In this document: piece after piece, positions 13,001 through 49,814 of the stretch | How positions within the stretch are numbered: the stretch's first letter is position 1 | Layout: each line of letters opens with the position of its first letter | Source of the DNA: Tubulanus polymorphus | Taxonomy: Eukaryota; Animalia; Nemertea | Direction: 5' to 3' | DNA: 64,000 nt | NCBI RefSeq assembly: GCF_964204645.1 | Contig: NC_134026.1 | Span: 23,470,150 to 23,534,149 of the forward strand | The notes under the pieces: model-generated | What the model saw: the letters and a program-made list of their open reading frames with translations, nothing else | Databases searched by the model: none | What the model was told of the DNA's origin: nothing | Program-made: the position numbers and the translations under genes

Positions 13001-15390
13001 TGTAGCACGGCAATATCTCACTAAGTGATTAGACTGCCCGCACTAACCATAGAAACAGTTCTATGCACTAAGAGCAATACCGATGATTCCAGTAATCGAA
13101 TGTTACTTCAAAATTGCATATTCTATTTAATGAGCTTCAATACTCAAACTTGTCACATTTAATGCCTAAATGCACTAAAGACATGTCTTTTGTTGACTGT
13201 CACAAGTACATTCTTTTAATTTCTGGATGACTTTTTATTTTTAAACTGACCCAATTTTATGCGATCATAATGGTTACCAGAAATAGCATACAAAATATGT
13301 GATCACAAAACCTGAAAGTGTTATGCACTGGTTGACCAACACTAAAGTATGGCCAGACTACTTTCAATGTAGGCCTAGGCCTATATTTATAGCAAATATC
13401 TATGTATCTGTGTTTAAATGATTAACCTTGTGTCTTTTGTAAGGGGACTCATAATTAAGTTCCATTTCCAGGGCAATATGGGGAGGTTATTTAGTTAATA
13501 AACGTGTAAGGGTCCGACATATGACAAGTTCAGATAACACTTAATAGAAAAGCCCAGTGTAGTCCAGTCCATTTATAAATAAAATTATCAAGCGTTTTGA
13601 TGGTTCAACTGCAGGGAAATATTCATCTTCTATTTTATCATACGCAGTTCTGAAGCAGGTGTTTTGGATTTTTAAACCAATGCCAACTTCATTAAATCTA
13701 TTGCTTCAGAGTCAAAATTCTTATCTGTGTGAATCATAATCGATGGAGCGATGAAATTCTCTTTCCGCATATAGCTCTATCTAACGAAACTACTGTGAAA
13801 GGAATAGGAACCACATTGCTGCATCAAGGCATGTTGATTCCCCTTACATTGCTGATTGAAAATGTAAAAAGATTTTCACATCATGGATTTCATGAATATT
13901 TGTGGCCTATAATGAAAGGATTGGTTGACATTGTCATTTTGTACCTTTATAGGCCTATAGATGCTTTATAACTGACACTATTTCATGATGAAGCTACCTC
14001 TGTGTAGGGGTTATTTTCTTCTTTATCAGTTCTTAGCAGCACTGAACAAACAAAATAAAAACCAGATACACCTACAGCGTTTGTATTTAATGGAAGTGCT
14101 GTGCATAATCTGTCCAGTAAAATTCTGAGAAAGATGAATAAGAACCACCGCCCGGCAATCCTGTTAACTCCTAACAACCCTCTGGACCTGGGCATAATGT
14201 ATGGCCCCCAAAATGCCTGCAATCATAGGCCTAGATTAAAGCCTCGAGAAAGAGACAACCAGGTGTGCTTACATTAATAAAACAACAGATAAGCCTAATA
14301 ATCTTCCTAACAACCACAAAAAATAAAAACAATAAAGATACCAAATGACAAAATATATCAAATGAAATAGATGTAATTATCCAAATTATTCATAATCGGC
14401 ATTGGTCAATTACCATATGATGAAAAATCATACATTTCTCCCAGCTGCAAGTAGGCTAGATCAGGCCAACCTAATTTTTTTTCCCATTTATTTCAATCAT
14501 GTGGAATCCCCCAGTCAAATAAACAATCATTCGCTATTGTATCATGAAATTATCTGATTATACGTTAGGCCTGGTACATATGTCAGTAATCAGATAAAAG
14601 GATGAATTCCATATGAACAAATTAATCCTTTCATTCACATGTAAGTATTAACTGCAAGGCTCCTATATAGTTACCTAATCGTTGGTGGCAAACGCTTTTA
14701 TAAACAGATGGGCTTAGTGAAATCATCCGTGGGATTGTAAAACTAATTAAACCAGACAGGTAATACTGACTATATACAAGGCCTAGCCGTTGTTCCCCAA
14801 ACAACGGTTGTAGGGACCCGTAACAACGACTGGTGTTCAGACTAGGCCTAGCCTACTATCTTTGGTAGGAGATCATATTACTTAGAAGATTCATGTGTGA
14901 AATGAAGCAGCATTCATAGTTAAACTATTACAATATATGAAAACAAGATATGCCAACGATAAAATGAATAGATTAACTCCATGAGAATGATTGTACCGGT
15001 AGCAGTACCTTAAACTGTCACCGTTTCAAAAGATGATCAACCAACACATTCTTCTAAAGACTAGATTAGAGAAGACGTTGTTGTAAGTTAACTGAAATAA
15101 TCTCCATTGCTTTAATGAAATGCAAGATTGAATTTTAAGCTTAGCCAACTTTTAGGTCGAGTACAATGACAATATCAAATTCCACAGAACGAAGAAAGAG
15201 CGCCGAAATAGGATAGAAGGAACATACTTACTTCTAGGCGAGGTCTGCTTGGATACGTTTGTGTAGAACTGTAAGATATTGCATTTCTTCTGGCTAAAGC
15301 TTTCGCAGGTATCTTCGTATCCAATGACAGTCTAGGTAGATGACCGTTACCATTTGAACGGGCCTCCATTTCTAATAGAGCTGCACACAT
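1038..15390 (-). CDS. PDE7: PDE7-type cAMP-specific phosphodiesterase, N-terminal exons only (gene continues past the left edge)
   Basis: Exons 15232-15390 (MCAALLEMEARSNGNGHLPRLSLDTKIPAKALARRNAISYSSTQTYPSRPRLE, donor gtaagt, phase 0), 2042-2102 (RRGGISFENTDRNAVYVRML G) and 1038-1124 (DVAAPKHAEVAKDKSHHKLPDSEQKLLD) splice in frame. They match the PDE7A1 N-terminus as I recall it ([41 protein letters not shown]). The catalytic domain is not in the window. Confidence 0.85.
10546..10638 (-). CDS. Candidate alternative first coding exon of PDE7
   Basis: ATG-initiated 31 codons (MKTYGCKFDMIPFTSCISQNSKNWKITDSCE) ending at a consensus donor GAG|gtgagt in phase 0, compatible with exon 2042-2102. Confidence 0.45.
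13041..13072. mobile_element. 18-bp CA..TG inverted repeat with 7-bp TSD (footprint-like)
   Basis: cactaac [catagaaacagttctatg] cactaag. Confidence 0.5.
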
Positions 15391-16033
15391 AGTGTGCCTA
15401 TCGTGGGTTTCCCCTATCAGTTACTTCCGCGTTGTACCCGGTGTCGGAGCATTCCATTCTGCTCAACAGATGGCAGCACGTTACGGAAATGTAATAGAAG
15501 CTCCACAATATGGCCGGCGTAGTCAGAGGAGACTGTGAGAATTTTTAATTACTCCAGTTGAAAATGCTAATACATCGACTATTTACATTTTTCAGTCGGC
15601 TTGTATTGTTTGGGTGCTAGACGGAGTTATCCCCATATGCATATATGTAAGTGTTAAAGATTAACTTCGTAATGCATACAAGGAAAAGCTCCATACCATT
15701 TCTATTTTTTAGTGTCAAATTGTGACTGTGAGACGTATATTTCTCTTCAATGTTTTGTTCTGTCAATTTATTGCATGTCTTAACCTATGTTTAAATTTTA
15801 TATACGGCGTAATAAATATAAGTTCAAGTTCAAATATGTCAATTATTTGTCAACTAAAAGTTATAAGGTCTGGTAAGGATTTTATCAGAAAAGCTGCAGT
15901 TAATATAACACTTGAGAATGAGAGTACATCTGTGTAAATTAATTGCAATAACTGATGTTTCATTGTGTTATTTACACCACTGTTTTATTGCTATTTATTT
16001 CTATATTTGTAGAGGGTTTCATTCTAAAAGACT
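15391..16033. promoter_or_regulatory. Putative bidirectional promoter and 5'UTR exons between PDE7 and the PDZ-serine dehydratase gene
   Basis: Divergent start codons about 640 bp apart. Local CpG enrichment at 15400-15530. ETS-like cores (ACTTCCG, CGGAAAT) and a CTCF-like motif caacagatggcagcac (15464-15479). Plausible + strand UTR exons: donor near 15535, exon 15596-15646, acceptor at 16012. Confidence 0.6.
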
Positions 16034-19000
16034 ATGGCACTTAATAAAAGCAACACAGGAACTTTGGCTCGAAAACCAGCAGTGGCGCCTCCAACTCCCA
16101 ATGTAGCTCCTTCTTGCATAGATTTTGGCCCACCAAGGAAAGTTACTCTTCATCGACAAGCTGGTAGTATAAATAATGGCTTAGGATTTAGTATTGAAGG
16201 TGTGTTTTTATACCGATTCATCCAAATTTCCGAGTTCAACAAATTTCTAGTACTGTCACTGATAACAGGAAGACTTCCATTGAGAACGATGATTGATTTA
16301 TTGCATGCGTTATTTAGTGATAAATTTTGATTCTGTTTTAGTGATTAAAGGCGAAAGCGAAAAGGACAGCGGAGTGTTTGTAAAGAAGATAAGTGCCACG
16401 AGCCCAGCCGCTAAAGGCGGACAGTTACGGGCTGGAGATAAGATCCTTGAGGTAGGGGCGTATGTTACTACGAAAAATTCATCCCTTCTTAAGGGCCTAA
16501 TGGTTTTTAAGGAAACTTTGATATTCATCAATTTGAGGTTAAGGATGGTTCGATGACTAAGCTACATTTAAATGACTGATCATTACATTTGCAGGTTAAT
16601 GGTCAGGAGCTGTCAGGTGTTTCACAAGGAAGTGCAGCTAATATATTATGGGTGGCTCAAAATCCTGTTATTCTCTTGGTGCAAGGCCCTAAAATGGATA
16701 CGAAACCACCGCCGAAGGTTCCGCCAAAACCAAAAATGCCTAAATCGAACACAACACAAACTTTACCGAGAGCACGTGATACAAAGAAGGAATACCATGG
16801 CTCAACCAAAAGCATCGATCGTAAGTTGATCAGAAAAGATAAGTCATCACCGGTCACAGAGCCAACACCACCGCCACCTCCATCGGTTACAGCGGACGAG
16901 CCACCGATGGTTCCCGTACCGGAGCCGATGCCCGTACTGTCGATGAAGAATAACGATCGCAGCATTCAGAGAATGGACTCGAATGAACGCGTGAACTCGC
17001 CGAATCCAGAAATCATCGACCGAATCGTGCAGGAATTCAACGAACGAATCGTAGTTCAACAACAACAAAAACTTGCTGCTCCACAACCAATGCCACCTGC
17101 TCCTGAATTCAACGACGCTGATGATTCTGGAAAATTAGTCATTAACAATGAACTGTTGCCCCCATCAGAACCTATAAATCTGCCTCATCTGACAGAATTT
17201 TATGATAATGTTCGCGGGCCTTTAAGAACAGTTCAACTGGATCGTGAAGCTGGGAAGGGTCTTGGTGTCAGTATCGTTGGTAAGTACTTGATCTCAATAG
17301 TGATCTACCTGTTTTATGAAACAACAATAGTTTTAGAGTTTTTGAAATAAATCTTGCATTATTTTGGACTGGGCAAAGTCAAAGCTAAGCTAATGGCCTT
17401 GTTGGTTTATATTTGAATAACCTAGGACTATGAAAGCGATGATATTCGTGGTTTACTTTACATTAAATTGGTTTTATTATCATTGAATTATCCTCTCTGT
17501 CGTTACTGATGTCATAAACAGGCTTCAAAATCCGGCTAATTATGACAGTCAGTTGATTATCGAGCAGGCTGTTTGTAGTTACACATATTGATCATTGAAT
17601 TGATTATCAATCAACTCTCCATAATTACATTTTCAGTGGCAGTATAGTCTCGCTACTCACGCTGGGAGACTATGATTATGTCCGCAGTGAAGATTTATAA
17701 TTTCAACTAGATTAATTAACCAACAGTGGAGAATTATTTCAAAATTCGATTTTGACTGATGAATGTAGTAGCTCTCTTTTCTACACTGACAATGTCCCTA
17801 CTTTTAAAATAGAAATATTTTTGCAGGAACATATCAAATACATCAGTTAGTTCATAAAATGACATGATCATTAACAATACAAATTCCCCTCAGGGATGAT
17901 TATGTTCTAATAATTGTCACAGGAATATATCTACTTGTCATTCTGAATGAAATTTTTCCCAATTATCAATGCTTGCTTGTACGTTGTTGGTTAAATGGAA
18001 AAACCGTTAAACTAGAGGATCACTTTCTTCTATTTCTAAATCAAATGAATAAGTAATATGAAATGATCATTTATCTATGTTTGATGATGAGGTTTTCAAG
18101 GTTTTACTGAATATATTTTATGCCCACTCGGGACATCAGTCAAGCCAACTATTCGTGCGTTTACTTTTCGCCCATCGTTCATTTGTTCATCTATCTGTAG
18201 ACTATTTATATTTATGTTGGTACCCATGCATATTTTATAACCACAACCAATTGCAAATCAGTAGTTCATGACATGCTCTCTATGATTGTGTTGAGTTTTA
18301 AGGTCATTTATAAGTCCACCACGGGGGCGTTGAATAGCGGAATAATGTGGTAATTCCATCTAATTTTGTAACCTCAATCAATCACTAAGTTGTAGCTCAT
18401 GACATGTTCTTTGTAGGCCTATTTGTTCACCAGGGGTGTTGAATACTGAAATTTTCAGATCGTCAAGCATTTCACCACGTGGGCATGGTGTCCATGGGCC
18501 CCTAGTTTTCTATTGAGATGGGTAATTTTGAAGATTTTTGTGCATGGGATGACGTTATTTTGTTATAGTTGATAAGATAAATGGTACTCAGGAAAAAGGA
18601 GTTATTATCAAAAATGTAGTAGCTGATAGTCCTGCTGGTCGTAGCGGAGTTGTAATGCCTGGCGATTGTATCATTCAGGTAGTTCTTCGTTGTCATTTTC
18701 TTGATGTATTTTGTGCCTGAGGCTCTTGTGGTTTGTTTCGATATAACCAATCACCTATCGGTAACCGTAGGCCGCAGTACATGTCTGTATTTCAAACATA
18801 TTTTTCACAAACTCCTGTCTGTTTCCTATTCCTATTGGCTTATGATACATCATTCTCAGAGAGCGTTGTGGTATGGATTCATCTGTAGTTGTGAGGATGT
18901 GTCAAATTGTTGCTAGCTATCTTGTCTATGATGACTGTCACTACTGACAAATAACATATTCTACTAACAATTATATTAACCTTTAATGTATAACGCTTCG

Positions 19001-22000
19001 TAAATCTACTACTAACCTTTGTCTATTACAATACTGCCACACTCTAATGGAGATTTCTATATTTCATGACTAACTAGGTGAACGATCGAGACTTGACCGG
19101 AGTTACTCAACCCGAGGTCGCCGACTTGTTGCGCACTGTTGCCACACCCGTCACGCTTATAATTCAAATCGGTACCCAGTCGGAGCCAGATAGCAATTAT
19201 GACCAATCATACGGCTCAGACGACGAAGAAGAATGGACACCGCCATCAGTGATACAAATTGAACGAGGCTCCGCTAAAGGCCTCGGGATCAGTGTAGTTC
19301 GTATGTGTTCATTTTTGAACAGAGTTTTTATCTATGTTGTCTTTTTTTTTAACGAATTACACAGAATATTTGTGGCCATAAATCATTTCGATGAAAAAAT
19401 GTCGTACGAAAGGTTATTTTTCTGATTTACTTTAGATAATGGTTTTGTGACGTATTCATTTGAAACATTTCCGATTGAAAATCATCAGAGGACTTAATTG
19501 CCAGTCGCTTCTGTTCAGGGAAAAGGGTTGTGTTGTTGAAATGTAGACTTTGCACAAGTTCTGTATCGTCTTCATAAAATATAACTGTCGAGTGCTTTCA
19601 AGAATGAACACTTGTTGAATTTCTGCTTCATAAAAGTGCTCCAGTCTACTCGAAATTATGAAATTATTGATAGAAAGTCTCGAGAAATTGTACAATGGTG
19701 AAAATGTATGGACACTAGCCTCACTGTGTTATTTGTCAAATTGATATATAGTAGCGTAATGAAGTTTAGAAATGTGGATGCATGGAAGCAGTGAGGCGAA
19801 AATTGTACCCAAGAGATTTCCATCATGTTCAGCGCACTGAATGAGTCTGCAAGTGTTGCTAGTAATACTAATTACTGCTTGTCTCAAGTAGAATGTATAA
19901 TCACACATTAACTACCAACAATCCCACCATTAATTCTCAACATTCAATTCATATCTATTCGTGGTTACGTTTCGTGTGAATCAATGAATTTGATTTATAA
20001 GATTTCTTCTCTTTTCTCATTTTTGCTGTCAGTAATGGTATTATTCATAACAACATTCTTCAAGCACTCATACTTCCAGATACAAACTAACTATTAACTG
20101 TTACAGGTGGGAGTGGAAAACGAGGAATGATTATTAAACAAGTTATTGCTGACAGTCCGTCTGCTAAATGTGGCTCTTTGCAGCCAGGAGATCGAATTCT
20201 GAAGGTAAATAAGGCAAAATTGTAGTTTAGTACCAATATCATAGAGCCATAAGTCAAGGGGTTATGACTAGACTTATAAGCAATATACTGTTATTAACTC
20301 CTGGTAACTAAAAAACTCCCAACCTAACTGAATCATTACTCGCTATCGGTTGTAATTAACAGAATAATCAACATGCATTACTTTGATATTAGTTTATTGA
20401 CACATCCTTCTACATGAGAATTTGCTGTCATGAAATGCTTTTTGCTCAGGTGAATGGAATAAGTTTAGAGGCTGCCAATGAACTTGAAGCCGTTGAAGCG
20501 CTTCGTAAGGCGAGCAATCCTGTTCATTTAGTCGTACAACACCCTCTGGTGGGTACGCCGTACATCGAAAACGGGCATCAGGGATTGATCGACGAGGAAC
20601 GCTCATTGACTGGGTCACATTCCCCGGCTTCCAGTGGACATCTGTACCCCAGCCCTGGAGTTTTAACTCCGAGTACGCAACCAGCAAGTCTAGCTGCTAC
20701 GCCTACGCCATCACTATCAACACCTGTAATCCTTGAACCTCCTCCTCTTCCACAAACATTCCATATTTATCGAGAGCCCGGAACTGGATTGGGTATCAGT
20801 ATCGCTAGTAAGTCACAGATGTTGTCTGTGTTTTTCAACGTCGTTGTAGTTTATTTCTGTGATCTGTATTTTTCATTTTTTCGTGTATTTCATTTACAGT
20901 GTCTTCATGTATTATGTTTACCACTTATATGACGCCCTGAATTATCTATGGTAACTGTTTAGTTACATGATTTCAGTTTGTTAGGTACCCCTGTACCTGT
21001 GTTTTAGAGTCTATTTAGACGAGTTTGTGTTGCAATATGCTTCATGTACCATATGTGAATTTGAACCATGTGTAATCATTGTTTGTAGTGAAAACTAGCG
21101 GAAGGATGAATCGTTATGATAAAACCAAATTCCCACTTAGTAGATTGGTTGAGCTTATATAGGCAACATGATTCATATTGTAGGGCCCATGGTTTTGATA
21201 CTTTTTTTCTGTTAATGGTTTTTAGATGATCGTTTTCCTATCAGCAGATTATCCACATTTGAACAAATACATTTATTATATAGCAATGATATGCATTTAT
21301 GTAATGAAAATATGTTGTTCTGAATGATTGGCGAAAATTATGTATATTTGATGCGTGTTTTTCAGCTGCACCTCCCGGACAGAAGGGTATGGTTATAAAG
21401 CAGATAGCTAATGAAAGTCCTGCAGATCATGATGGAAGATTGAAACCTGGCTATCGAATATTAGAAGTAAGCGGGTTTGTGATTAATATGATGAGTTTTT
21501 CATGATTTACCCCAATAGGATAATGAGAAGGAAAAATGATGTGATACACATATGTTGTAGGTGAATAACACAAGTGTAGAACATTTAACGCAGTGTGAAG
21601 CTGTTGAAATCCTACGTACTGCTAAAAATCCTGTCACTTTAGTCGTTGATACATCAGATATAACTCTAGCTAATGACGGCCCAGCCAGCTGGGATTCACC
21701 AAGAGAAGTTCAGATCATTCGTGAACCTGGAAAGGGTATAGGCGTTAGCATTATTGGTAAATAGAGTTCATGTCATGCCAGTATTCACAGACAGATATGA
21801 GCAAAGTCTGCTCTTTTGATGACTTCATGATATTTCACTATCTTTCCAGGGGTTAAAGATCAAGACGTCATTATTAAACAAGTGATTGAAGGAAGTCCAG
21901 CTGGTAAAACTGGATTGTTAAACGCCGGTGATAAAATATTGCAGGTAATTATTAGTTTCAAAGTATTTGGTTGGTGTATATGTTCACCAGGTGGCATTGA

Positions 22001-24088
22001 ATATTGAAATTGTCAGATGATGAAGAATTTCAGACCATTGCCCAAGTGGGTGTGGTGTCCCCTGGACCATGGTTTATGCTGTTAATCTAATCTCACTGTG
22101 GTTTTCTTCTTAAAGGTGAATGGTTACGATTTGTGTGGAGTTCCTCAATACGTAGCCGTTGAAGTTCTTAGAAACGCTACAAATCCTGTTACATTGCTCG
22201 TGCAGAAGACGCAAGACAGGGTATGTTTCAATAGATGTCACTTTCAAATTGAATCATGTAAATCCATTTCCAAATCCTACAAAACCGTAGCAAATCTGAA
22301 GCGTCTCTGCATAGCACAGCTGGTTTAAATACCGGTGTATGGTTTTTGTTGTAGGATCCTACGTATTTACATACAGAGTATACCGACACACCAGCGAATA
22401 ATAACTGGAATTTTACGAACTCTTGTGATACACTGAACGACGATAATCTTCCGATCAGAGAAACAAGTATTCTTGATTCGGTGCTCTCTCTGGATATATA
22501 CGGAAGTGAGATTTCACACAGCGATCACATGGAATCCCGCAATCAGTTATCCGATTCGTGGCACAGTGCCAATAATGAGAATCTCCATATAAGGACTCCA
22601 TTGATTGAGAGTCGACCAATGTCGGATTATTCGGGCTATAGAGTTTATTTGAAACTAGAGAATACACAACCTGCTGGTTCATTCAAGCTAAGAGGCATTG
22701 GCAATCTATGCAAAAAGGTATGATATTAATTTGATTGGATATATATCTGTTTGAATTAATTAAGTCTTAAACTGTTGTTGTTACTTAATAGGCTAAGGAA
22801 GCCGGTTGCAGCCATATTGTTAGTTCGTCTGGTGGAAATGCAGGAATTGCTGCTGCCTATTCAGCCAAAAGGTTGGGTTTGCCTTGTACAGTTTATGTGC
22901 CCTCTTCAACCCCCGAGTTTATTAAATATAAATTACGAAGTGAGGTAAGTATCAAGAATGAACCGTGCGATTCCTGAAATTAAATTAAGAACTGGCTGAT
23001 TCAAAAATATTTCGGACATATATGACTATGAATTATTGTTTGTTTAACTCATAGGGTGCAGAAGTGATAGTACATGGTGATGTTTGGGATGAAGCTAATA
23101 TTAAAGCTATGGAGATAGCTAGTTTACCTGGTAAATAACAATGCATAAAACATTTAGTAAGCATATTTCACGCAAAAATTCATTTGTTTTTTGCCATGCT
23201 TATTTCAGGATATGGTCTTATTCATCCATTTGATCATCCTCACATTTGGTAAGTTAATCATTGATTCTCATCACTCGAAGGTCCTCACAATTATGTTTTT
23301 ATTCATAGTTTTCTCTGATTTATGACTGATATCTCTTGTAGGGATGGTCATGCCTCAATGATTCACGAAGTAGCCGAACAGATGGATCATATTCCGGATG
23401 TTGTCATAGTTTCAGTTGGAGGGGGTGGTCTAATGTGTGGAGTTATTCAGGGTATGTGGAATGTTGGATGGAATAAAGTACCAGTAATTGCCATGGAAAC
23501 TAAAGGTGCTAATTGTTTGAATGCGGCATTGGAGATGGGTGAACCTGTAAATATACCAGGAATTAGGAGGTAGGAATCATTCAACAATCTCATTTTTTAT
23601 CCAAGTCTTATTCCAATAAAATAGTGTTGAATTATGCATACTGCCTTTTATTTGCAGTATCGCGAAGAGTCTTGGAGCAGTAAAAGTAGGGAAAAGAGCA
23701 TTTGAAATATGCCACCAACATCCTGTATTATCTCAGATTGTAACTGATACTCAAGCTGTAGATTCATGTTGTCGATTTGCTGGTAAGTTTTTGACTGGGT
23801 CTCTTTGAATTAACCGTAGCTAAGCTTAGAACAATTTAGCATCCATTTTAGTACTTTTCAGCACTACAGTTGTAAATACTTTTGGTGATTTTATTTACAG
23901 ATGATCATCGAATGCTGGTTGAACCGGCTTGTGGGGCGACTTTGGCTGCCATTTATCACAATACTATTCCTCGTCTGCAACAAGAAAATAAAATTGGCCA
24001 CGTACGGTCAGTTGTAGTCATCGTGTGTGGTGGAAACATTATGACACTCGGGTGGCTTGAAAAACTGCGGAAAGATTTTGGTATATGA
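16034..24088 (+). CDS. Five-PDZ scaffold fused to L-serine dehydratase/threonine deaminase (SDS/SDSL-like), about 1139 aa, 18 coding exons
   Basis: Exons 16034-16199, 16342-16451, 16595-17279, 18569-18678, 19078-19300, 20107-20204, 20450-20807, 21366-21466, 21561-21756, 21850-21944, 22116-22220, 22355-22717, 22792-22944, 23055-23130, 23209-23248, 23342-23569, 23658-23782, 23901-24088. All junctions are GT-AG and phase-consistent (3420 nt). PDZ loops GLGF/GLGV/GLGI/GLGI/GIGV with SPA..G.L..GD.I..VNG segments. SDS motifs LHIRTPL, LKLENTQPAGSFKLRG (PLP lysine), SSGGNAG, HPFDHP, SVGGGGL, LVEPACGA, IVCGG. Confidence 0.85.
18421..18508 (+). repeat. Dispersed short repeat family ending in CCCCTAGTT (possibly a Helitron/Helentron-derived end)
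   Basis: caccagggg..ttgaatactgaaattttcaga..aagcatttc..gtgggcatggtgtcc..ggcccctagtt. Related copies at about 5696-5760 (-), 21981-22072 (+), 53596-53676 (-), 54225-54247 (-) and 60420-60483 (+). Confidence 0.65.
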
Positions 24089-27000
24089 ATTCAACAAGAT
24101 TTTTGAAACTGCTTGTCTATTTTCCGGAAATGCTGATTAAACTGCATTGTATAAGCCTTCCTTGTGGGACAAAGCTGTGTTGATTGTTTTGTTACTACTA
24201 CAAGACAATCAACTAATAAGTAATGCTTTAAGGGTCTAAATACCTTATTTTTTGTGTTCCTGGTCATTTTAATCAATTTGCTTGTCATTCATTGAAATTG
24301 ATGAGAAATACATACTAATTACTGGTAACTGCTAGATGGGGTTGACAATGACTATATTTCATGAACTTGAATCCCATTCCTTTAATAGACCTACCTCATC
24401 AATACTTGTCAGCTCTTAAAATGTAGGTATACTTACCTCAGGCAGCTGACACTGCCTATATGAGCAACATGAATATACATCTGCTAAAGTTTTAATTTTT
24501 GTCAGTTAATACTCATAACCTTTTCATCAATTGTAAAAATTAATCTAGAATTTAGACTTGTAGATTCCAAATTATAGGATGCTATAAAGAAAGTGTCAAA
24601 AAACCAAAGTTTTTACTTTGCTTCAGTGATTTATTTGACTATTTACATATCACATGTTTACACAGGGTCAAATATTAATGTGGAATATTTGTTTTATTGT
24701 GAGGCTAAATGCAAGTGCTTAGGCAAGAATAGGCAAGTGTGACTAGATCAAAGAATGCCGATTAGTAAGATAAGGCTGTCATTTTTGTCATAATATCATT
24801 TCTTTACTAGATTGTATTGTAAAAAAAAGTTTATATGCATCAATATTAGGCTCAGTGATAATATAGGTTCATCTACTGAGCAATTTAACTATATGTGATA
24901 TCTATCATGATATATGATTGTTCGTTTTTCAATGATCTCTTCTTAAGCTTCAGTCCATCTTTTTGGATTATTATGTATCTCGATAATGTTTGATATATTG
25001 CTTCTATAACTGCTGTACATCATGGCAATCTCTGTTTTCAACTGGTTTCTTCAGTTACATACTGAAATTGTGCCGTAATACATGTATAACTCTGTTCAAA
25101 CTATATACAAGTTAATGAGATCTATGAAACTTGTAACTAAAGAAGTCAGTTTAGAAATCTTATATTTAAGTATGATGAATGCATTTACTGTTTGTTCAAA
25201 GAAATATGTTGTAAATACTTAAAGTACATAAATTGTTCAGTCATTTGAAGTACTGGTAATATGAAAGCGATTTCATCTGTTCACCTGCTTGTACGTACAT
25301 GTATATGGTTCTGCTCACATGGGGAAATCGTCTTGAAATGTGGTTGAATGAGAGCAAATCTATTCTAGAATTCATTACGACACCGATACCTTGCTCAATG
25401 TCACACAACGCATTTTACTGTTTGATAAGAAAGATCTTCACAACTTTGCTATAAACACTGCAACCACCTTTTTGAGAGAGGCAACAGGAGGGTTTTTCTT
25501 TTTAGTTTTGAATACACAGGTCCACTCATGAATTTTGCGACTGCTTGCCCTTGTTGCTCAGAGATGCATTTTAAGAATTGCCAAAGATTTATTAATATAT
25601 TAACAATAACATATCAATTTACATGTGTGAACCTGGCAAATTTATGATGATTGAAATTTTTCTTACCATATATAGAGCCATATCTAAATCTGTTGCAATA
25701 CTTACTCATCAGTGTCATAGAATCGATTTTTGCTTAAAATTAATGTATATTTGATTCAGTAATTTGTAATTGTATTTCCATCTCAGTGCAATGACCAATT
25801 ACCTCAACATCACTTTGGCATTACTGAAGTCAGTGATCATGCCCTGAACCGATTAGATTTTGAAACAATCAATGTATCGAAATATCAGTTAGATTGTTTT
25901 TGTTTGACTTGATGTTTGATCGGTAAATGACCTGACCTTATCATGAAAGAATGAACGGAAGAATTGAATAAACCAAAATTACTTCGCAAAAATCCACTAT
26001 TACACAGTAAGCAAAATTGACACGAGTGCTGGCTCGCATTTACTCACACAATCTTAGATGTATTAGAGTTGTAAACCTTTTGAAGGAAGTATGTGCATGC
26101 AATTTTAGTGAAATGTGTATTACATTAAAATAGAGAGATGTTATTGCTTTTATTAGTAGCATTAACGAAATAAGTAGTAGAAAACTATTTCCAATTCCTT
26201 GAATTAGGTATGGACTGTATTTAGGGTGAGAGTGTGAATGAATTGTGTACAAAATATGTATGTATATACATGTACATTCTAAGTTAGACCTGTTGATATG
26301 TCGTGTATACGCTAACTCGTGCGATGTTGCTTTTTTGACACAGTCTGTTGATGTGTACTTTGTTCTCTATTTGCCTCTGCTTTTTCGATATGCATGTAAA
26401 TGTGTAGATTATTTGTATATATTAATCTATGTATTAGTTACGCTTTCACCTCGGGTAACTTGTGGAAGAAGTGCATGGATTATTCTATGTAGTGATTGAA
26501 CTGTGTTAGAAATGGCTTGCGATGATTGAGTCACTTCACTTTTGGAATGGACCTTTTAGCAAATTTAAAATTCACGATGAAATTTGAATATAAAGTTATG
26601 GAACTGAAGGTTACTATATATTCGTATGTCATTTAACTATCATTGAACTGCTCACACAATTTAAATTTTTAGTTGTCTAAGAAAAAAACATTTTTGTAAA
26701 TGTACATGTATATAGTATTAAATATGAATGCCTTACCATGTATTGTATAGTACATGTATGATCATTATTGATAATGTGTAAAGTTTATTAACATTATTGT
26801 CGAATGTTGTGCTATCTCTGATAATTTCGTCCATGTTATATTGTCACACACATATCTCTTTATCTCTCTACTTTTTGCACACTTTCCTCATACATACAGT
26901 ACTCGATTATATTTTAACATTCCAGTGTTTGTTTCATTTGTTGATAATTGATAAGATAAAAACTGCCACGTATGCGCGTCACCTCAAGTGTTTGGTGGTA

Positions 27001-28052
27001 ATTTGAAGCGAATAGAATTTTTCTTTTTCCAAGTAATCTAGTCACGAGTCTGATTATATCTATCTGATTGTGAGATTGAATCTCTTTTAAATCTTCTGAA
27101 AAAAAAATAGTCGAGATCATCAACTTTAAAGCATTGAAGTTGATTATGTTTTGTATATCTATATAAGTGTACTGTATGAAAAACAGGCCCCTGTAGGACT
27201 CCGACCTGCTGCATGCAAGCAGTAACATACATCGAAAGATTTTTTTAAATAATTGACAACATCCTTTGAATAACTCTAATTTTATGAATTTGACATTACC
27301 TATATGATTGATAAACGATAAACTAAAGTATTTTGAAGCCAAATTTCCTAAAAGCTGATAATTAATTATGTTGTGCTCAATTTCTGTTTATGACTATCAT
27401 TTGATAAATGGGGTTGAAAATATTAAGGCAAAAGCTGAAACTGTAGTGGCGCTGGTATTTTGGCTTAGATGTGTGTTGCCTGTGGGTAGAATATCTTTCG
27501 TTTGTGTTCAAAGGTCTTCATTCCAAAAGAAAACGTCCAGTACTACTGTACTGTAAATAGCTAAGTAAATTTGGTCGACAGCACAGCAGCAGAAATACGA
27601 CTTAAATACAAGCATGTACCTTAATAAGCATACCTTAATTAGTCCCTGGAACAACTGCCCATTATTGACAGGATAAATAATTGCAATCCTATCTCACCTG
27701 GTGTTTTGCTTCTTAAAGTTTTAATTTCTACGCAGAACATTGGGATATACGCAATTTGATAGTTGGCTGGCTCCCCTTTGAGTATTTTTATGTTCCACCC
27801 AGACAGGCTTCTTATTTTTAGTTTGGTATATGGTTGAATACAACATTTTATCAGTAGTTCAGAGTTTAGGTTGAAGAGGGAACATGTATTGTTGTTGTTA
27901 TTTGTTGTTGTCATATATTAGTTTGTCATTCAATAAAATGATATTGCTTCAAGAATACACTTCTGCTGTTTTATCATCCTTTCGTATATTTGTGGTCTAT
28001 GCAAGACACGGTGTAGGCCTAATCTCGTTACGACGAACATAGTCTATCATTG

Positions 28053-32600: not shown

Positions 32601-34806
32601 GGGAGTGATGACAACTATAATAATACGTATAACAATGGGAAAGAAATTGTCATCTTTCAGTTTTTGATTATTTGTGAAGGCGTATTGAATAATTATCATA
32701 TCCCAATCATCCACATTTCAAAGAGTAATGATAATGTTATCCAACTTTCATTTCAGCGCCGGAATTATTTTTCTTCATAACGATGTTCACAATAGTATTT
32801 GTCAACAGTGAGTATTCGCAAGATTAGATTGGTTTTCCTTTTTAAGAATTATACGACTAATTTGTAATATCATGCTATGATTTATATATTTTCAGTGTGT
32901 ACTGGACTGTGGGCAAACTGCATGTTTGGAATAGCGTCTCATTTCAGTAAAAACTACGTAAACGCTGTCGTCATCGGAAGCGTGAGTAAACATCGATGCT
33001 TTAAAGATATTTTGAATTTTAACGTAGAGTAACAAAGAGTACTTTCCACGATTCAACCTCATTCATTATAGCGTTGATGATGTCATTATCATATTGTTGC
33101 AATTTTTCAAATTTTCAGAATCTAAGTGGTTTGATGACTGCTATCTTAGTCATATTGTCAAAATCAGGTTCGTTTTGTAAACATAGAAAGCCATAGATTT
33201 CTAAAACCATTTTTGCACTTTTTCTTTTTTATTTCAAATTAATAGAAACAATAATAGGTTAAAATATGCGATGGATGCTTAATCAATGTTTCTCAAAGTT
33301 GGAGGATTGTTAATTCGAAAGATTAAGAGATTAATTTACCCATGTCCTCCAGACAAGATGGTCAAGTGGTCATATATATGTATGACCAGAGCCATATGAA
33401 GGTATCGAGCTCTTATAGATCTGATGAACGGATAGGGTCCACTACTTCGGATATCCTGCATAACTAACGAATGTTAATTGATTATTTTCAGGCACAGCGG
33501 ATCCAGTCATTTCGGCAATTCTGTATTTTGTATCGGCTGTCGTTATCGTCTTTTTGTGTTTGATCTCATTCATTCTGTTGAGAAAATCGGTAATTTTGAA
33601 CTTTCATTCTTAAATGTATCAGACGTATTGGATCATCATAATAGAACTTCAAATGACAATTGTTTTGAATCAACGTATCTTTGTTTGTGATTCCAGGAAT
33701 TTTACAGAAGTCATTACTCTGATAAATTGGTGATGAATGAGGATGAATCCAAAGCTGAAATGGTTCTTCCTTATTGGAAAGTTTTCAAACTGGTAAGACC
33801 ACCCAAGGAGACGATGTATTTCCTCGTGTTTTTTTCACAGAATCTAACGAAGTTGGCAATAAACATTTCTTTACAGATTTGGCCACAACTTTTCGATGTT
33901 TGGTTTCAAAGATTCATCGCTGGGGCTATTGTACCGGCGCTCCTGGCTGACATTGAAAAAGTCGATTCTAATTTCTTAATTCCTGGTCAGTAATTCATAA
34001 TTTTGAACAGCTATCGATTTAGACTTTACATTATTCCATTTAACAAGACAAATATCGTATTATATTTTCAGATTACTACTACACGGATATTATGTGTTAC
34101 CTGTTTGTTAATTTCTGTATTTGCTTTGGTAACTTTTTCGTCTTCTTTATTCATAAGGTAAGCTTGTAGATAATAACATCACAAAATCTAAGCGTTTTTA
34201 TACCTTTCAATTCAAATTTTATTTAAGAGTGGGTTTTTCAGATTCACAAATCCAAATTTACATTCTGTTTACCCGGTATTCAGATTTAGAATGTTTCTTT
34301 TTATTTCAGCCTAAGTCATTGTATGTCATATATTTCCAAATGGTGCGAATTTTGTTCATCCCATACTTCATGTTGTGCAACTACCGACCAGAAACGAGAA
34401 GCAGCAACTTGCCAGTTTTGTTGAAAAATGATTGGGCTTTCTTAGCGGGTGTCATCGTATTCGGAACGACGAATGGCCACTTCTCTGGTCTAACAATGAT
34501 GTATTCAAAACAGTAAGTTTTTAGAAGTGATTATTTTAATATTGGCCCAGCCATGGATTCTAAAACACTTAAGAGTCCATGGCCCAACCTAACACTACTT
34601 TCTCTTATCGCTGTATTCATCTTTACGCTGAGCAAGTCTTTTAACTATACCTAATTTGTTGTTTATCTCTTATTCACAGAGCTGGAGGAACCGACCCGGC
34701 AGCAAAGCTATTGGCCGGTATGTACACAGGATTTGTGCAAAATTTCGGACGTTGTTTTGGACTAGGGATGAATATTGTGATCGCGTATTTTGTTGAATAT
34801 GTCTAA
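29681..34806 (+). CDS. Equilibrative nucleoside transporter family (SLC29) protein, copy A, about 448 aa, 13 exons
   Basis: Exons 29681-29811, 31826-31907, 32164-32297, 32412-32506, 32757-32807, 32896-32981, 33119-33167, 33492-33589, 33697-33792, 33877-33985, 34072-34157, 34310-34512, 34680-34806, all phase-consistent. ENT hallmarks GIGLTLPWNLFMTA (TM1), R..F.P.F..CNYRP and F..TNGH (TM10). Confidence 0.88.
31959..32113. mobile_element. Foldback/MITE in ENT copy A intron 2
   Basis: Termini ggtagctgattcgggc / gcccgaatcagccacc (15/16 complementary), plus internal complementary blocks (ctgtac..gctagac / gtctagc..gtacag). Confidence 0.65.
34545..34588. mobile_element. 30-bp CATGGA..TCCATG inverted repeat with 7-bp TSD
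   Basis: gcccagc [catggattctaaaacacttaagagtccatg] gcccaac. Confidence 0.65.
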
Positions 34807-36806: not shown

Positions 36807-39800
36807 ATGACACGCGGGCGTTCAGGCACGAAAACCATGATTGTCGATGATATGGGAGATGGAATAGACTCTGTGTCGTATTCTTCAAGAACAGATGAGA
36901 CGACTCCACTTATACAGTTGTCGGGAGTGAAACTTCAAGAACCTACCGATAGGTATTTATTTAAATGATATGATATGTCGCCTAATAATGACAAGCACAA
37001 AACCTAGAAGTGTATTTGTTTATTATAGGGTCTCTTAATGATCAAACGTTGAATCATTCTACTCTCAAACAATTTGGGGTCACGATTTTCCATTTTATAT
37101 GCAATGTATTTACATCATGGAATCTTCTCAATTAGAAGTTGTACCACTTACGTTTTGGTCAGATGCAAAAAGTAGTAAAAAGATCTATTTTTCAAATCCG
37201 TTTTGAAGTCTTTGTGAAGTATTCCACGATGTTTTACTTTGGGAAATTGGATCTGGATATTGAAGTCATACCTTTTTACTTTGAGTTCCCATGAACAAAT
37301 GCTGCTATTACATTAGAGAAAGTGGTGATTTATCATAATAACCCGTCACAGAAGAAAAACCATGAAGTGATCACGATTTGAAAAGTCTACAACTTGATAA
37401 CTTGAAAATTGATAACTTTTTATTCTATTTGTAGATACAACTTGGTTTTCATTACGTTCATCATACAAGGGGTGGGACTGACGCTACCATGGAACCTATT
37501 CATGACAGCTAAAGATGTAAGCATTCTCATAACATCGAAAAATAAAATCTATTGCTCAGTGGGGAGGAGACGATAAGATTTTTTTTAAAATATAGATATA
37601 CAATCCGATGGAATATGAGCCAAAATACGATTGAACCAACAAGAATTTTAGATATCTGTCTTCATGACTGAATTGATATTTTTATTTCAGTATTATGTGG
37701 GTTATAAGTTGGCACCGGCTGGTAGCGCCAGTTATCGTCTGAATTTTCTTAGTTATGCTGGTATCGCTGCGATGGGTTCAAATGCCTTGCTCAACGGTGT
37801 AAATCTCTTTACGCATTGCGGAAAGTAAGACTCTTAATTATCAATTAATTATCAATGTTGCATGGTGCTGGGCTTTAGCTTACTGATGCGCGATTTTTTC
37901 GAACTTTCAGTGGCCGACCTACTGTCCGGACCATTGTAAGTCAATTAGGAATGATTATAGCCTTCGTTTTTACGATAGTCATGGCTGTATTTGATACATC
38001 TACATGTAAGTTTCATGGAGGCATCTTTTCTTTAAGAATGCCATGTCGCAATTACAGTTTCCATCGTTTTTCCTTTTTCTAAAAAAAAAATTCAATTTCA
38101 TCACCCATTATCGCATGATATCATTTTTTCAGATCCACAAGTATTTTTCTTTATTACGTTGTTTACAATAATATTCGTCAACAGTGAGTATCTCCATGAC
38201 GTCATTTATTGACCTATATTAATAGAGAAATAATCAAATATCTCAAAATTTCAGTTCCTGTTAGTTTCATCACGATACAATTTACATGATATAATCTTGG
38301 AATTATCTGAATCCGGACATTAGATTGCTTTTCCTTTTTTAGAATTATAGGACTAATTTGTAACATCATGCTATGATTTATATATTTTCAGTGTGTACTG
38401 GACTGTGGGCAAACTGTATGTTTGGAATAGCGTCTCATTTCAGTAAAAACTACGTAAATGCTGTCGTCATCGGAAGCGTAAGGATGATAGTCTAATGTTA
38501 GACTGATCAATTAGAAATGACTTCTTAGATATGAGTGTAAAAGTAACTATACTGTGGGAATGGTCTATTTTCAGAATTTAAGTGGATTGCTCACTGCTTT
38601 ATTTGTTATATTGTCGAAAGAAGGTTCGTATTTACGCAATAATATTGTCTGAATATAAAATGCGGTTGAAATTACTATTCACATGGCTTCGCTCCAATGG
38701 CCTAAACGTAGATGATATTACTTCAAAAAGTTATCGTTTCAATTAAAAAGTAATATCATCTACGTTTTGGAGCGAAGCCATGTGATCATTTTTACCCCCT
38801 GTACAAGTAGGCACACTTAAATGTAATCCTAATCCATATACCCTCTGTGTTTTTCCAGGATCAGCGGATCCAGTTATATCAGCGATCTTGTATTTTGTAT
38901 CTGCTGTGGTTATCGTTTTTATGTGTTTAATCTCATTCATTATGCTGAACAAATCGGTAATTCAACTTTCTTAAATCCTCAGATTTTCATAAACCCTACT
39001 TTTGTATAGGAATCTTTTAAAAAAAGCAACTACAACGTCGATATTGAGATGATATCCGTAATCATCTCAGCGAATGATATATTTTCAGGAATTTTATAAG
39101 AACTATTATTCCGATAAATTGATCCAAGCTGAAGATGAGTCAACGGCCGAAATGGTGCTACCATATTGGAAAGTATTCAAAATGGTGAGCAGTGTCTTGA
39201 ATGTGAGTTTCTGAATCAACGTTCGATAATAATTTTGAAATGTTGCACTATTATACAGATCTGGCCGCAATTATTTGACGTTTGGTTCCAAAGATTCGTT
39301 GCTGGAGCCGTCATTCCTGCAATGCTCGCAGATGTTGTTAAAAGCGATCCCAATTTTCTGATACCTGGTCGGTATTTCATTGACGAGTGATTAAACTAAA
39401 ATGTATCTTTTTTCACATAAGTACTATGATCTATTTTAGAATACCACTACACGGATATCATGTGTTATTTATTCACTAACTTTTGTATTTGTTTCGGAAA
39501 CTTATTCGTGTTTTTCGTTCACAAGGTAAATACAGCTGATGACATACGATTTGATATAAGTTGCTACCCAAGACGTAAGAATTACAAGAATGGAATTGTC
39601 TTGTCTTTACGCTTGTTTTGTTGTATTTCTAGCCGAGATCAGAGTATGTGGTATATTTCCAAATGGTACGAATGTTATTTGTACCATTCTTTGTATTGTG
39701 CAACTATAGACCTGAAACCAGAAGCAAAAACCTTCCAGTTTTGTTGAAAAGTGATTGGGCTTTTTTGGCGGGTGTCATTGTATTTGCCACGACGAATGGT

Positions 39801-40097
39801 CACTTCTCTGGATTGACAATGATGTACTCAAAGCAGTAAGTTAATTCTCTTGAAATTATACGCCCACTTGTATATCTTGAAAGTATGTACACATCTGTCT
39901 CTCGAATGCTGATCGATAAGAGATAAGTCGTTAATCTCCACCGATTTCCCGATTGTTTTTTTTTTCACAGGGCCGGAGGAAATGACCCAGCATCCAAACT
40001 TTTAGCTGGCATGTATACTGGATTTCTTCAAAATTTTGGACGCTGCTTTGGACTAGGAATGAATATCGTAATTGCATGGATTGTCGAAAATATCTAA
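36807..40097 (+). CDS. Equilibrative nucleoside transporter family (SLC29) protein, copy B (tandem paralogue), about 453 aa, 13 exons
   Basis: Exons 36807-36952, 37435-37516, 37691-37824, 37911-38005, 38133-38183, 38392-38477, 38575-38623, 38859-38956, 39089-39184, 39259-39367, 39440-39525, 39633-39835, 39971-40097. Exons 2-13 have the same lengths and phases as copy A. Confidence 0.9.
38679..38785. mobile_element. Foldback/MITE in ENT copy B intron 7
   Basis: tcacatggcttcgctccaa..aaacgtagatgatattactt pairs with aagtaatatcatctacgttttggagcgaagccatgtga (arms of about 38 bp, short insertion in the left arm). Absent from the copy A intron. Confidence 0.75.
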
Positions 40098-46700: not shown

Positions 46701-47039
46701 TAAATATCACTTACTCTGCGAATAGCTTATTGTTGAAGCAATTGGCTGATATGTGACTATCATCCTAGATGTCGTAGGTGTAGAGTTTTGGTCGTTGATA
46801 AAGTTTACACTCTGAGAAATGTACTCCTTAATTAACGAGTTCTGCTGGGTAATCAAAACAACTGCAATGGGATGAATACAATGATATTGAAACTTGGTAG
46901 TCGGCTTATCCTTTCGTGAAAATAACCGAAGATCTCCAGAAAGCTTACGTATTTTAAAATCTACACCTCCGGCAACTGGTAAACACGTAAAGAAGAATAA
47001 AGTTCGAACGGCAACCGATAAGGAACCTATGGAATTCAT
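40763..47039 (-). CDS. IR25a: Ionotropic receptor co-receptor IR25a, about 15 coding exons
   Basis: Signal peptide exon 46949-47039 (MNSIGSLSVAVRTLFFFTCLPVAG), amino-terminal-domain exons, S1 AERESVIDFTIPYYDLVGITILM, pore LWFCMTSLTPQGGGE, M3 TYTANLAAFLTV, co-receptor extra loop IWKEMSLNDSMSDQERAKLAVWDYPVSDKF with the NDS glycosylation site, and M4 GISIQNIGGVFLVIF. Some internal exon limits are approximate. Confidence 0.93.
44527..44682. mobile_element. Tc1/mariner-pogo-like MITE in an IR25a intron
   Basis: TIRs cagttgaagctcgttaatacga / tcgtattaacgaggttcaactg (21/22). Left flank TA, right flank CA. Confidence 0.75.
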
Positions 47040-47570
47040 CGCTGGTTTCAATCGTGTTTTATATTCATCAAATCCAGAATAACCATAATGATCGAATAAC
47101 GATGAGCCTGAAAATCAAATTAGACCGATTCCATTCAGTGAGGAACGTACCCAGCGCCTACGTGAGCATATATATATATACCATACGTATATCATCTTCC
47201 AACTCAAACGAATAACGACCACTTGATGGAGACACATGTGCCTATCGAATTGATCGATTATGTATCCGAACACACGCGGAACGTTTGAAAAGAAAAGTTT
47301 AACTAACGATTATTGAATAAATTTGTGACCATGCGTACTCTTTGGAACAGGTTTTGGAGAGCTGCATTTTCATAGTAAGCATTTTGCGTCATATACCAAC
47401 TTCATTATGCTATATGAAATGTGATGGTTCAATCTATTAACTGTCCGATACTTTAGTTCTTAACGTTAACATCAGAATGCAGTTCAAGTATTAGTTAGTA
47501 TTAGTATCAGACTCGAAACAATTAGGAAATATTGCTACTTTTAGCCAATGTTGCATCATTCTACAATTGC

Positions 47571-49023: not shown

Positions 49024-49814
49024 CAAGGCCTACATGGCATTATTATTCCAAGTATGAAAAAATGAATTTAAACATATTTTGACTTAAAATTTTCTAAAGA
49101 ACCTGCGAAACAACGTTTCTCACAAACAAGCATTTACAAGGATGGACAAATTAATTTGTAGTATGTTTTAATTCAAATAGTATATGCTATTTGACAAATG
49201 ATTACTCCAAGGATTGACAAAGAAGTATCTTACGTCACTACGAGAAGCACGTGAATGTGATTTACACCAGGGCGGTGGGAGACACAACGCGATCAGTTTT
49301 CATGCGGGGTGCATCGTTAAGTTCTTTCCTCTTGCCAGCGTTATCAAGTGAGTATGTATATTACGATGTTTTTTAAGAGAACTTTATCTAATCAAACATA
49401 CATATATTCTTAGGTCTTTATTGCTTCAAAGATCGTTTTGAATATTTGTAAATATTCTTTTTGTTAAGAAGATCAACCAAGAAGGACAAGTAATTATCGG
49501 CAGTTCAGAAATATTGCACCATTATGATGCACGACCAAACAAAATCTTTTTGAATAATTCACTCTATGACTCTTTAACCAATTCAGCATACATGATAGTA
49601 TAGTCGTTAATAAAATTCATTACATGAAAAACATAAAGATTTACTGATTCTTTGAAGGTTATTTTTAGGCTATACATACATAAGTCAAACAATGAAATTC
49701 ATTTTTAAAATCCAAGGAGTCATATTCTAGTTTGATTCGTACGTCAGACTGGATATGTACAATCTATAGGTATACCTAGACATATTTTCTATTTTTAAGG
49801 AGTCAAGTCAGTTA

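What the first reader, a model, noticed from the sequence alone, without database searches (positions are those of the whole stretch)
16034..24088. Five-PDZ scaffold fused in frame to an intact serine dehydratase: a possible junction- or synapse-tethered serine-consuming enzyme
Seen: the exon ending PDZ5 (22116-22220) closes in phase 0 at a gtatgt donor. After a 134-nt intron, exon 22355-22717 is open from its acceptor through an acidic linker of about 75 aa into LHIRTPL..SFKLRG, so linker and enzyme start share one exon. The spliced model has no stop between PDZ1 and the SDS terminus, and all PLP-binding motifs are intact. Established: SDS/SDSL enzymes are normally stand-alone cytosolic proteins of about 330 aa. 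Their fold-type II relative serine racemase reaches synapses by binding PDZ proteins (GRIP, PICK1, PSD-95) in trans. Inference: this fusion hard-wires that link, placing serine/threonine deamination (lowering the D-serine/glycine precursor, releasing pyruvate and ammonia) at PDZ-ligand membrane proteins. I know of no described protein with this architecture, but I could not search for one.
Basis: partly seen in the sequence, partly recalled or inferred. Interest (0 to 1): 0.9.

Follow-up and report, generated by a model that had tools for sequence, protein, structure and literature searches.

The report
PDZ-tagged serine dehydratase, split by splicing
A ribbon-worm gene joins five copies of one protein-docking (PDZ) domain to an intact serine-degrading enzyme, a pairing found in no other protein searched; the PDZ5-to-enzyme splice is seen in spliced contigs, but those contigs cut the gene into a two-PDZ protein and an enzyme with one complete PDZ, so the five-PDZ form is only predicted and a synaptic role is untested.

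Summary
The DNA observation holds: 18 GT-AG exons give an unbroken 1139-aa frame, five PDZ domains then a serine dehydratase with all catalytic residues. The PDZ5/enzyme junction 22220/22355 is spliced in run X2, inside one 1170-nt contig. But the same run splices 19300 to 19436 (stop after PDZ2) and skips exon 20450-20807. That path yields a 451-aa and a 568-aa ORF, identical to two RefSeq proteins of the nemertean Tubulanus polymorphus; no 1139-aa protein was found. The five PDZs form one clade with PDZ7 of MPDZ/PATJ (98/94), a polarity and junction scaffold. They lack its class I histidine, and GRIP, PICK1 and PSD-95 were not their best matches. The enzyme is SDS/SDSL-type, without the racemase serine. 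No other PDZ-SDS fusion turned up (0 of 40 long homologs; only this one among 340 proteins held). Verdict: a real, apparently lineage-restricted chimeric gene; the five-PDZ enzyme is a predicted minor or former isoform; the synaptic reading has no support here. The scan had not noted this on other DNA.

The parts
15640..15646 (+). 3' end of an upstream untranslated exon (start not mapped), spliced to 16013
   Evidence: X2 joint 15646->16013, GT..AG
16034..24088 (+). 18-exon reading frame, 1139 aa (exons 16034-16199, 16342-16451, 16595-17279, 18569-18678, 19078-19300, 20107-20204, 20450-20807, 21366-21466, 21561-21756, 21850-21944, 22116-22220, 22355-22717, 22792-22944, 23055-23130, 23209-23248, 23342-23569, 23658-23782, 23901-24088)
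   Evidence: 12 of 17 introns among the joints shown
16130..16693 (+). PDZ1 (aa 33-125), MPDZ PDZ7-like
16694..17215 (+). proline-rich linker between PDZ1 and PDZ2
   Evidence: open in 5 of 20000 shuffles
17216..19173 (+). PDZ2 (aa 300-389)
19237..20545 (+). PDZ3 (aa 411-496); complete only in the genomic model, broken in the contig path
19436..20204 (+). alternative acceptor at 19436 giving a 769-nt exon; stop TAA 19495-19497 ends the 451-aa two-PDZ ORF (= XP_074641593-5.1)
   Evidence: X2 joint 19300->19436, contig depth 339; identity to P0341
20168..20170 (+). ATG of the 568-aa ORF (= XP_074641592.1), in a shifted frame of exon 6; T at -3 and +4
20450..20807 (+). exon 7 (end of PDZ3, linker, start of PDZ4): open and codon-biased, but skipped in the spliced contigs and seen only in an unspliced contig
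   Evidence: X2 joint 20204->21366, depth 288; unspliced contig 20175-21393, depth 31.6; GC1/2/3 0.62/0.51/0.37
20744..21653 (+). PDZ4 (aa 563-648); lacks its first two strands and the GLGI loop in the 568-aa form
21696..22208 (+). PDZ5 (aa 663-745), the only complete PDZ on the 568-aa form
22221..22354 (+). fusion intron, phase 0, 134 nt
   Evidence: X2 joint, GT..AG, depth 273, 106 letters on the shorter side
22355..22582 (+). acidic linker of 76 codons, predicted disordered; first 58 codons likely former 5' UTR; internal Met (MESRNQ) at 22529
22583..24088 (+). SDS/SDSL-type serine/threonine dehydratase domain (PALP, fold type II)
24089..26000 (+). long 3' untranslated stretch, covered by one X2 contig to at least 26000
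   Evidence: record 14

Best explanation
This is one chimeric gene in which five tandem copies of MPDZ/PATJ PDZ7 are spliced onto an intact serine dehydratase; alternative splicing around PDZ3-PDZ4 likely decides how many PDZ domains the enzyme carries, and those PDZs would dock it on the C-termini of cortical or junctional membrane proteins. Shown: the open 1139-aa frame; the spliced PDZ5/enzyme junction; the split path giving 451-aa (PDZ1-2) and 568-aa (partial PDZ4, PDZ5, enzyme) ORFs; the PDZ7 origin; intact catalytic residues. Inferred: (1) a two-exon PDZ7 unit was copied from MPDZ, repeated in tandem and spliced into the 5' untranslated exon of a stand-alone SDS gene, whose old start is probably MESRNQ at 22529; (2) the enzyme would turn L-Ser/L-Thr into pyruvate/2-oxobutyrate plus ammonia, without racemisation; (3) the one-PDZ enzyme would need a shorter transcript starting in or after intron 5, because on the long path it lies behind a stop and 16 ATGs; (4) the five-PDZ enzyme would be a minor, tissue- or stage-limited isoform; (5) ligands are probably not class I (S/T-X-hydrophobic) tails.
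For: Open frame and 17 of 17 GT-AG introns. One 1170-nt X2 contig carries PDZ4 part, PDZ5, linker and enzyme start. The contig-path ORFs equal RefSeq P0341 and P0001 letter for letter. Tree of 83 PDZs: window clade 98/88, with the six PDZ7s 98/94; the best phmmer hit is a PDZ7 for 5 of 5 domains. PDZ pairs have dN 0.45-0.68 against dS 1.45 to saturated (10 of 10 pairs). Exons 6 and 7 keep the codon-position GC pattern of the other exons, while the linker's first 58 codons are flat at 0.43/0.38/0.40. 3 of 4 coding variants in X2/X3 are synonymous, one of them in the linker. 29 invariant columns over 34 SDS sequences include this protein. The model of the enzyme part matches human SDSL at 1.0 A, TM 0.98.
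Against: No contig shown includes exon 7 or the 19300->20107 splice; 21 joints were not displayed and contigs drop rare forms. No 1139-aa protein among 7994 candidates of 400-2000 aa scored. X2 is not on record as RNA; I infer it from 15 of 15 shown joints being GT..AG and low intron cover. All spliced evidence is one run, and RefSeq may rest on the same RNA (not checked). No second species has the fusion, so conservation is untested. No promoter or transcript start inside intron 5 was shown, and there is no AATAAA/ATTAAA between 19495 and 20106 to end a separate upstream transcript. dN/dS between PDZ copies reflects old selection, not present use. No binding, activity or localisation data.
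Confidence: 0.5

Rival explanations
1. A fusion that is coming apart: the PDZ3/PDZ4 exons have recently dropped out of use, the long mRNA is unproductive for the enzyme, and active SDS is made as a near stand-alone 332-aa protein from MESRNQ or with passenger PDZ pieces.
For: The contig path and RefSeq split the locus. A start at MESRNQ gives 332 aa and sits 18 aa before LHIRTP, within the 2-26 aa range of 25 of 33 stand-alone homologs measured. The RefSeq ATG at 20168 has T at -3 and +4. The class I histidine is lost in 5 of 5 PDZs.
Against: Exons 6 and 7 are open, codon-biased and keep ordinary splice sites (acceptor 4.9, donor 7.7 bits). The linker upstream of the Met is open only in the fused frame (0, 1 and 6 stops in the three frames; 440 of 20000 shuffles open; 41 of 2432 intron windows). 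The junction is spliced in an unbroken contig.
Confidence: 0.22
2. The full five-PDZ enzyme is the one functional product, and the split path is a quirk of one individual, library or contig graph (part-processed RNA, or two overlapping RNAs merged into one path).
For: Every exon of the full model is intact and in phase. The alternative acceptor 19436 scores low (0.4 bits) against 4.3 for 20107. A contig across two genes shows no single transcript (caveat).
Against: The split joints sit in contigs of depth 339 and 288, like the flanking ones (273-498), while the exon-7 stretch shows only 31.6 (contig depth is a poor measure of level). RefSeq holds the split forms, three accessions for the 451-aa one. 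The matrix also scores a used acceptor at -4.6, so it is weak.
Confidence: 0.15
3. One reading: a synapse-tethered enzyme that lowers the L-serine pool for D-serine/glycine signalling, hard-wiring the serine racemase-GRIP/PICK1/PSD-95 link.
For: Serine racemase binds GRIP and PICK1 PDZs by its C-terminal Val-Ser-Val and forms a complex with stargazin and PSD-95 (PMC6333871, passages); same fold type. MPDZ also has neuronal partners (recalled, not tested).
Against: Best PDZ matches are PATJ and MPDZ, scaffolds of tight junctions and polarity (PMC6928914, passages). Gly stands at the position of the racemase's Ser84; SDSL scores 337 bits against 84-95 for racemases. No neural expression data. 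The glutamate-receptor gene 17 kb away is only a neighbour.
Confidence: 0.08
4. Two unrelated neighbouring genes merged by gene prediction or assembly.
For: Several long SDS hits elsewhere look like merged neighbours, such as SDS plus synaptotagmin-14 in fish.
Against: The junction lies within one X1 contig and is spliced in X2; it has the strongest acceptor of the gene and an open linker.
Confidence: 0.05

Closest known systems
Serine dehydratase / serine dehydratase-like (SDS, SDSL; PDB 2rkb, 1pwe, 4h27)
   Same: About 50% identity over the whole domain, 327-337 bits; same predicted fold, 1.0 A to 2rkb; PLP lysine, tetraglycine loop, pyridine-binding Cys and SSGGN motif kept.
   Different: Carries an N-terminal acidic linker and PDZ domains. 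0 of 40 long homologs and none of the other 303 SDS-bearing proteins held has a PDZ.
MPDZ (MUPP1) / PATJ, seventh PDZ of MPDZ
   Same: All five PDZs group with PDZ7 (98/94) and share its sequence pattern, in part including the residues before the first strand.
   Different: One PDZ type repeated five times instead of 13 different ones; no L27 hit; the alphaB1 His (8 of 8 references) is Gln in four and Glu in one; shorter loop after the second strand.
Serine racemase with GRIP/PICK1/PSD-95
   Same: Fold-type II PLP enzyme brought together with PDZ domains (PMC6333871, passages).
   Different: There the link is in trans through the enzyme's tail; here PDZs are on the same gene. This enzyme has Gly at the Ser84 position, Cys where racemase has Ser313 and Ile where it has Gln89.
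RRM-SDS fusion of flukes and tapeworms (database proteins; no paper found or sought)
   Same: An SDS domain fused at the C-terminal end behind an unrelated binding domain in a spiralian lineage.
   Different: RRM instead of PDZ; present in at least three genera, whereas the PDZ fusion is known from one species; separate branch in the SDS tree.

Membership tests
SDS/SDSL | PALP fold-type II domain over its full length | tested here: met
   PF00291 5-295/295, E 6e-73; Foldseek TM 0.98 to 2rkb
SDS/SDSL | SFK-RG with the PLP lysine, SSGGN, GGGG loop, pyridine-N cysteine | tested here: met
   K289, N315, G415-418, C549 of P0001 invariant in 34 sequences; the Cys and Phe-Lys features are named in PMC6424897
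SDS/SDSL | stand-alone protein of about 320-330 aa | tested here: not met
   568-aa RefSeq form and 1139-aa model; a 332-aa form from MESRNQ is possible but not shown
SDS/SDSL | Ser/Thr deaminase activity; homodimer | not testable with these tools
   needs assay
Serine racemase | re-face Ser84, two residues before the conserved Asn86 | tested here: not met
   G313, two before N315; residue roles from PMC6424897. The equivalence is by motif; no pairwise alignment to racemase was printed.
Serine racemase | closest in sequence to racemases | tested here: not met
   84-95 bits against 323-337 for SDS/SDSL
MPDZ/PATJ | PDZ domains homologous to MPDZ's | tested here: met
   PDZ7 only; the tree's references were 78 PDZs of 6 MPDZ proteins, no other PDZ families
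MPDZ/PATJ | N-terminal L27 and an ordered series of distinct PDZs | tested here: not met
   no L27 in P0341; five PDZs are each other's closest kin
Class I PDZ binders | His at alphaB1 | tested here: not met
   Q, Q, E, Q, Q against H in 8 of 8 PDZ7 references; role of the His from PMC3026046, passages
PDZ domains generally | R/K-xxx-G-hydrophobic-G-hydrophobic carboxylate loop | tested here: met
   GLGF, GLGV, GLGI, GLGI, GIGV with an upstream Arg in 5 of 5; motif definition recalled
Synaptic scaffolds GRIP/PICK1/PSD-95 | PDZs closest to these families; neuronal localisation | tested here: inconclusive
   In PDB, PDZ5 matches PATJ 2ehr at 66 bits and MPDZ at 55, single PSD-95 PDZs at about 40; localisation not testable

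The most novel reading that the evidence does not exclude
A nemertean has built a new scaffold-enzyme from five re-tuned copies of MPDZ PDZ7 and an SDS, and uses a splice switch to choose between a multivalent five-PDZ enzyme that deaminates serine/threonine at a junction or synapse, and a split state (free two-PDZ competitor plus one-PDZ enzyme): a regulated fusion/fission of scaffold and enzyme in one gene.
Probability: 0.2. Interest if true: 0.75.

Novelty: new variant of a known kind. Interest (0 to 1): 0.45.

Why it matters
SDS enzymes are known as free cytosolic proteins. A PDZ-bearing one would be a natural test of whether serine/threonine breakdown is useful when pinned to one spot of the cell cortex. 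The locus also shows the steps of building a chimeric gene: copying of one domain out of MPDZ, tandem repeats with a changed binding pocket, likely capture of a 5' UTR as linker, and splicing that splits the product again. Its weight is limited: one species, one spliced run, both parts well known, the shorter fusion already in RefSeq with its domains, and no function shown.

Tried and rejected
No whole genome is held for this window, so I could not ask whether a second, stand-alone SDS or an intact MPDZ exists in it; only one Tubulanus protein was among the 120 SDS hits listed. No RNA holder listed by record; run X5, guessed to be RNA, had nothing laid: no evidence either way. Run X4 and the 21 undisplayed joints were not seen, so rare exon-7 inclusion stays open. 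The ESM Atlas was never reached, so that search is missing. Complex prediction of PDZ5 with the enzyme domain, sent to test whether the enzyme's own hydrophobic tail docks in the PDZ: no verdict; stand-alone homologs end in the same kind of tail, so I do not claim it. The single-chain model leaves the PDZ part at low confidence for lack of alignment depth. No Rfam match in 14000-28000. No further PDZ or SDS sequence elsewhere in the window (tblastn); 1 of 73 flanking frames had a Pfam hit. The SDS tree does not place this enzyme with support. Trans-splicing as a way to free the downstream ORF: one search gave 1 paper, on chaetognaths, listing only; untested. Literature: 10 searches; from listings and abstract starts none describes a PDZ-SDS fusion; the library lacks most subscription journals. 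What PDZ7 binds was not found: 0 papers, and PMC2668367 is not held; ZO-3 as its ligand is recalled only. Rejected: racemase identity; assembly or annotation merge at the junction; the RefSeq name 'PTPN13-like' for the 451-aa protein (no phosphatase domain).
Full report
1. Observation. The region is an intron-rich animal gene on the + strand (GC about 0.38). I rebuilt it from the sequence: 18 exons from 16034 to 24088, all 17 introns GT-AG, 1139 aa with no internal stop (two searches were drafts with wrong boundaries). Each PDZ is built the same way, with a phase-1 intron after the carboxylate-loop strand and a phase-0 intron before the last strands, so a two-exon unit repeats in frame while loss of one exon breaks it. 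The linker is open in 135 of 20000 shuffles, exon 7 in 85 of 20000.

2. What spliced sequence shows. Five runs were listed, none on record as RNA. I laid four of the five. X1 and X3 gave only unspliced pieces among those shown; X5 gave nothing. X2 gave all 15 displayed joints, every one GT..AG, so I take it to be RNA (inferred). It supports the key junction: 22220/22355 at depth 273, in a 1170-nt contig whose length accounts for exon 8 through the start of exon 16. Exon 5 is joined to 19436, not 20107, making a 769-nt exon with a stop at 19495; and 20204 is joined to 21366, skipping exon 7. Exon 7 appears only in an unspliced contig of depth 31.6. 21 joints were not displayed, and contigs drop rare forms, so absence of the full form is not shown.

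3. The split path is what databases hold. That path has two long ORFs, 451 aa and 568 aa. A search with one enzyme exon found a 100% match, P0001 = XP_074641592.1, 568 aa, labelled Tubulanus polymorphus, a palaeonemertean ribbon worm (the class is recalled). A search with five PDZ exons found 2 proteins among 7994 candidates scored: P0341 = XP_074641593-5.1, 451 aa, and P0001. Both equal my ORFs letter for letter. No 1139-aa protein appeared, though it was within the lengths searched. RefSeq may rest on the same RNA as X2, so this is not counted as independent. On one long mRNA the second ORF lies behind a stop and 16 ATGs, and there is no AATAAA/ATTAAA between 19495 and 20106. It would therefore need its own shorter transcript, which contigs can neither show nor exclude. 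Its first ATG has T at -3 and +4; the next in-frame one, at 21389, has G at both (Kozak rule recalled). In either case only PDZ5 is complete.

4. The enzyme. P0001 matches human SDSL (337 bits), rat and human SDS (323-332) far better than threonine deaminases (135-143 for the best) or racemases (84-95). In 34 aligned sequences 29 columns are invariant, including K289, N315, G415-418 and C549. AlphaFold gives 296 residues at pLDDT 90 or more and a low-confidence linker, 175-249; the model fits 2rkb at 1.0 A. Racemisation needs Ser84, two residues before Asn86 (PMC6424897, passages; PMC6333871, passages); here that place is Gly. Deamination without racemisation is thus predicted, not measured.

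5. The PDZs. PDB matches are led by PATJ 2ehr and MPDZ 2fcf/2iwq. All 10 multi-PDZ proteins among the best 150 of 1.84 billion representatives are MPDZ/PATJ (9 by name, 1 unnamed sponge protein with 13 PDZs). In a tree of the five domains with 78 PDZs from six MPDZ proteins, the five form one clade (98/88) that joins the six PDZ7s (98/94) (90 columns; no other PDZ families included; the other MPDZ/PATJ sequences held were left out). The copies are 37-51% identical, with dN 0.45-0.68 and dS 1.45 to saturated, so the duplications are old and were under purifying selection. The carboxylate loop is kept in 5 of 5, but the alphaB1 His of all 8 reference PDZ7s is Gln in four and Glu in one. That His determines class I binding (PMC3026046, passages), so the ligands have probably changed. 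MPDZ and PATJ are tight-junction and polarity scaffolds (PMC6928914, passages).

6. How the fusion likely arose. A Met at 22529 lies 18 aa before LHIRTP; in 25 of 33 stand-alone homologs where the motif was found the distance is 2-26, median 8. The 58 codons upstream have no codon-position GC bias, and the linker matches nothing else held, yet they are open only in the fused frame. The simplest reading is that the PDZ array spliced into the SDS gene's untranslated leader and the frame was then kept open. This is inference; the chance level is about 2% (440 of 20000 shuffles; 41 of 2432 intron windows). Exons 6 and 7 still look coding, which argues that the full form is used somewhere or was used until recently.

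7. How rare. An SDS profile searched against proteins of 600-2000 aa gave 40 hits among 7995 candidates scored; none lists a PDZ (the tool warns that this is weak evidence). phmmer of P0001 over the representative library gave no other protein with both parts in the best 150. Of 340 proteins held at that point, 37 had a PDZ, 304 an SDS domain and only P0001 both. Other nemertean genomes could not be searched directly. Ten paper searches showed no description of such a fusion (listings and abstract starts only; four papers were read as passages; no supplements were opened). The scan's earlier notes held nothing relevant.

8. Verdict. The fusion is real and seems restricted to this lineage. The form with spliced support carries one complete PDZ; the five-PDZ enzyme is an intact but unobserved isoform. 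I put 0.5 on a working chimeric gene with a splice switch, 0.22 on a fusion in decay, 0.15 on the full form being the only real product, 0.08 on the synaptic reading and 0.05 on a merge artefact. It is a new domain architecture of a known enzyme family, in one species, without functional data: interest 0.45.

Noticed in passing
P0146, P0153, P0232 (database proteins): RRM plus SDS in one chain in Paragonimus (several species), Spirometra and Dicrocoelium, 840-960 aa: looks like a conserved fluke and tapeworm RNA-binding/serine dehydratase fusion; the three form a clade.
   Followed up: partly
P0132, P0134, P0157: SDS plus synaptotagmin-14 C2 domains in pipefish, dragonet and tuna gene models; the pipefish cluster also holds a stand-alone 323-aa isoform, so probably read-through or merged neighbours.
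   Followed up: partly
P0003: SDS fused to NAD-binding dehydrogenase domains (PF02826, PF03446) in the choanoflagellate Salpingoeca punica.
   Followed up: no
window 40766-47114 (-): Ionotropic glutamate receptor gene (ANF_receptor, Lig_chan, Lig_chan-Glu_bd hits).
   Followed up: no
window 34157-34513 and 39633-39836 (+): Two exons that hit the same part of Nucleoside_tran, suggesting two tandem equilibrative nucleoside transporter genes.
   Followed up: no
window 49770-50942 (+); 53377-54688 (-): Single-frame rhodopsin-family GPCR; ANKRD13-like gene.
   Followed up: no
window about 18270-18520 and 21967-22020: High-copy dispersed repeat in two introns of this gene (contig depth in the thousands; X1 contigs break at the second copy).
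   Followed up: no
window 20175-21393: The unspliced X2 contig over exon 7 differs from the window at 8 letters and 4 gaps, several just upstream of the 21366 acceptor, while the spliced contig 19436-20204 has none: splicing here may differ by allele.
   Followed up: no
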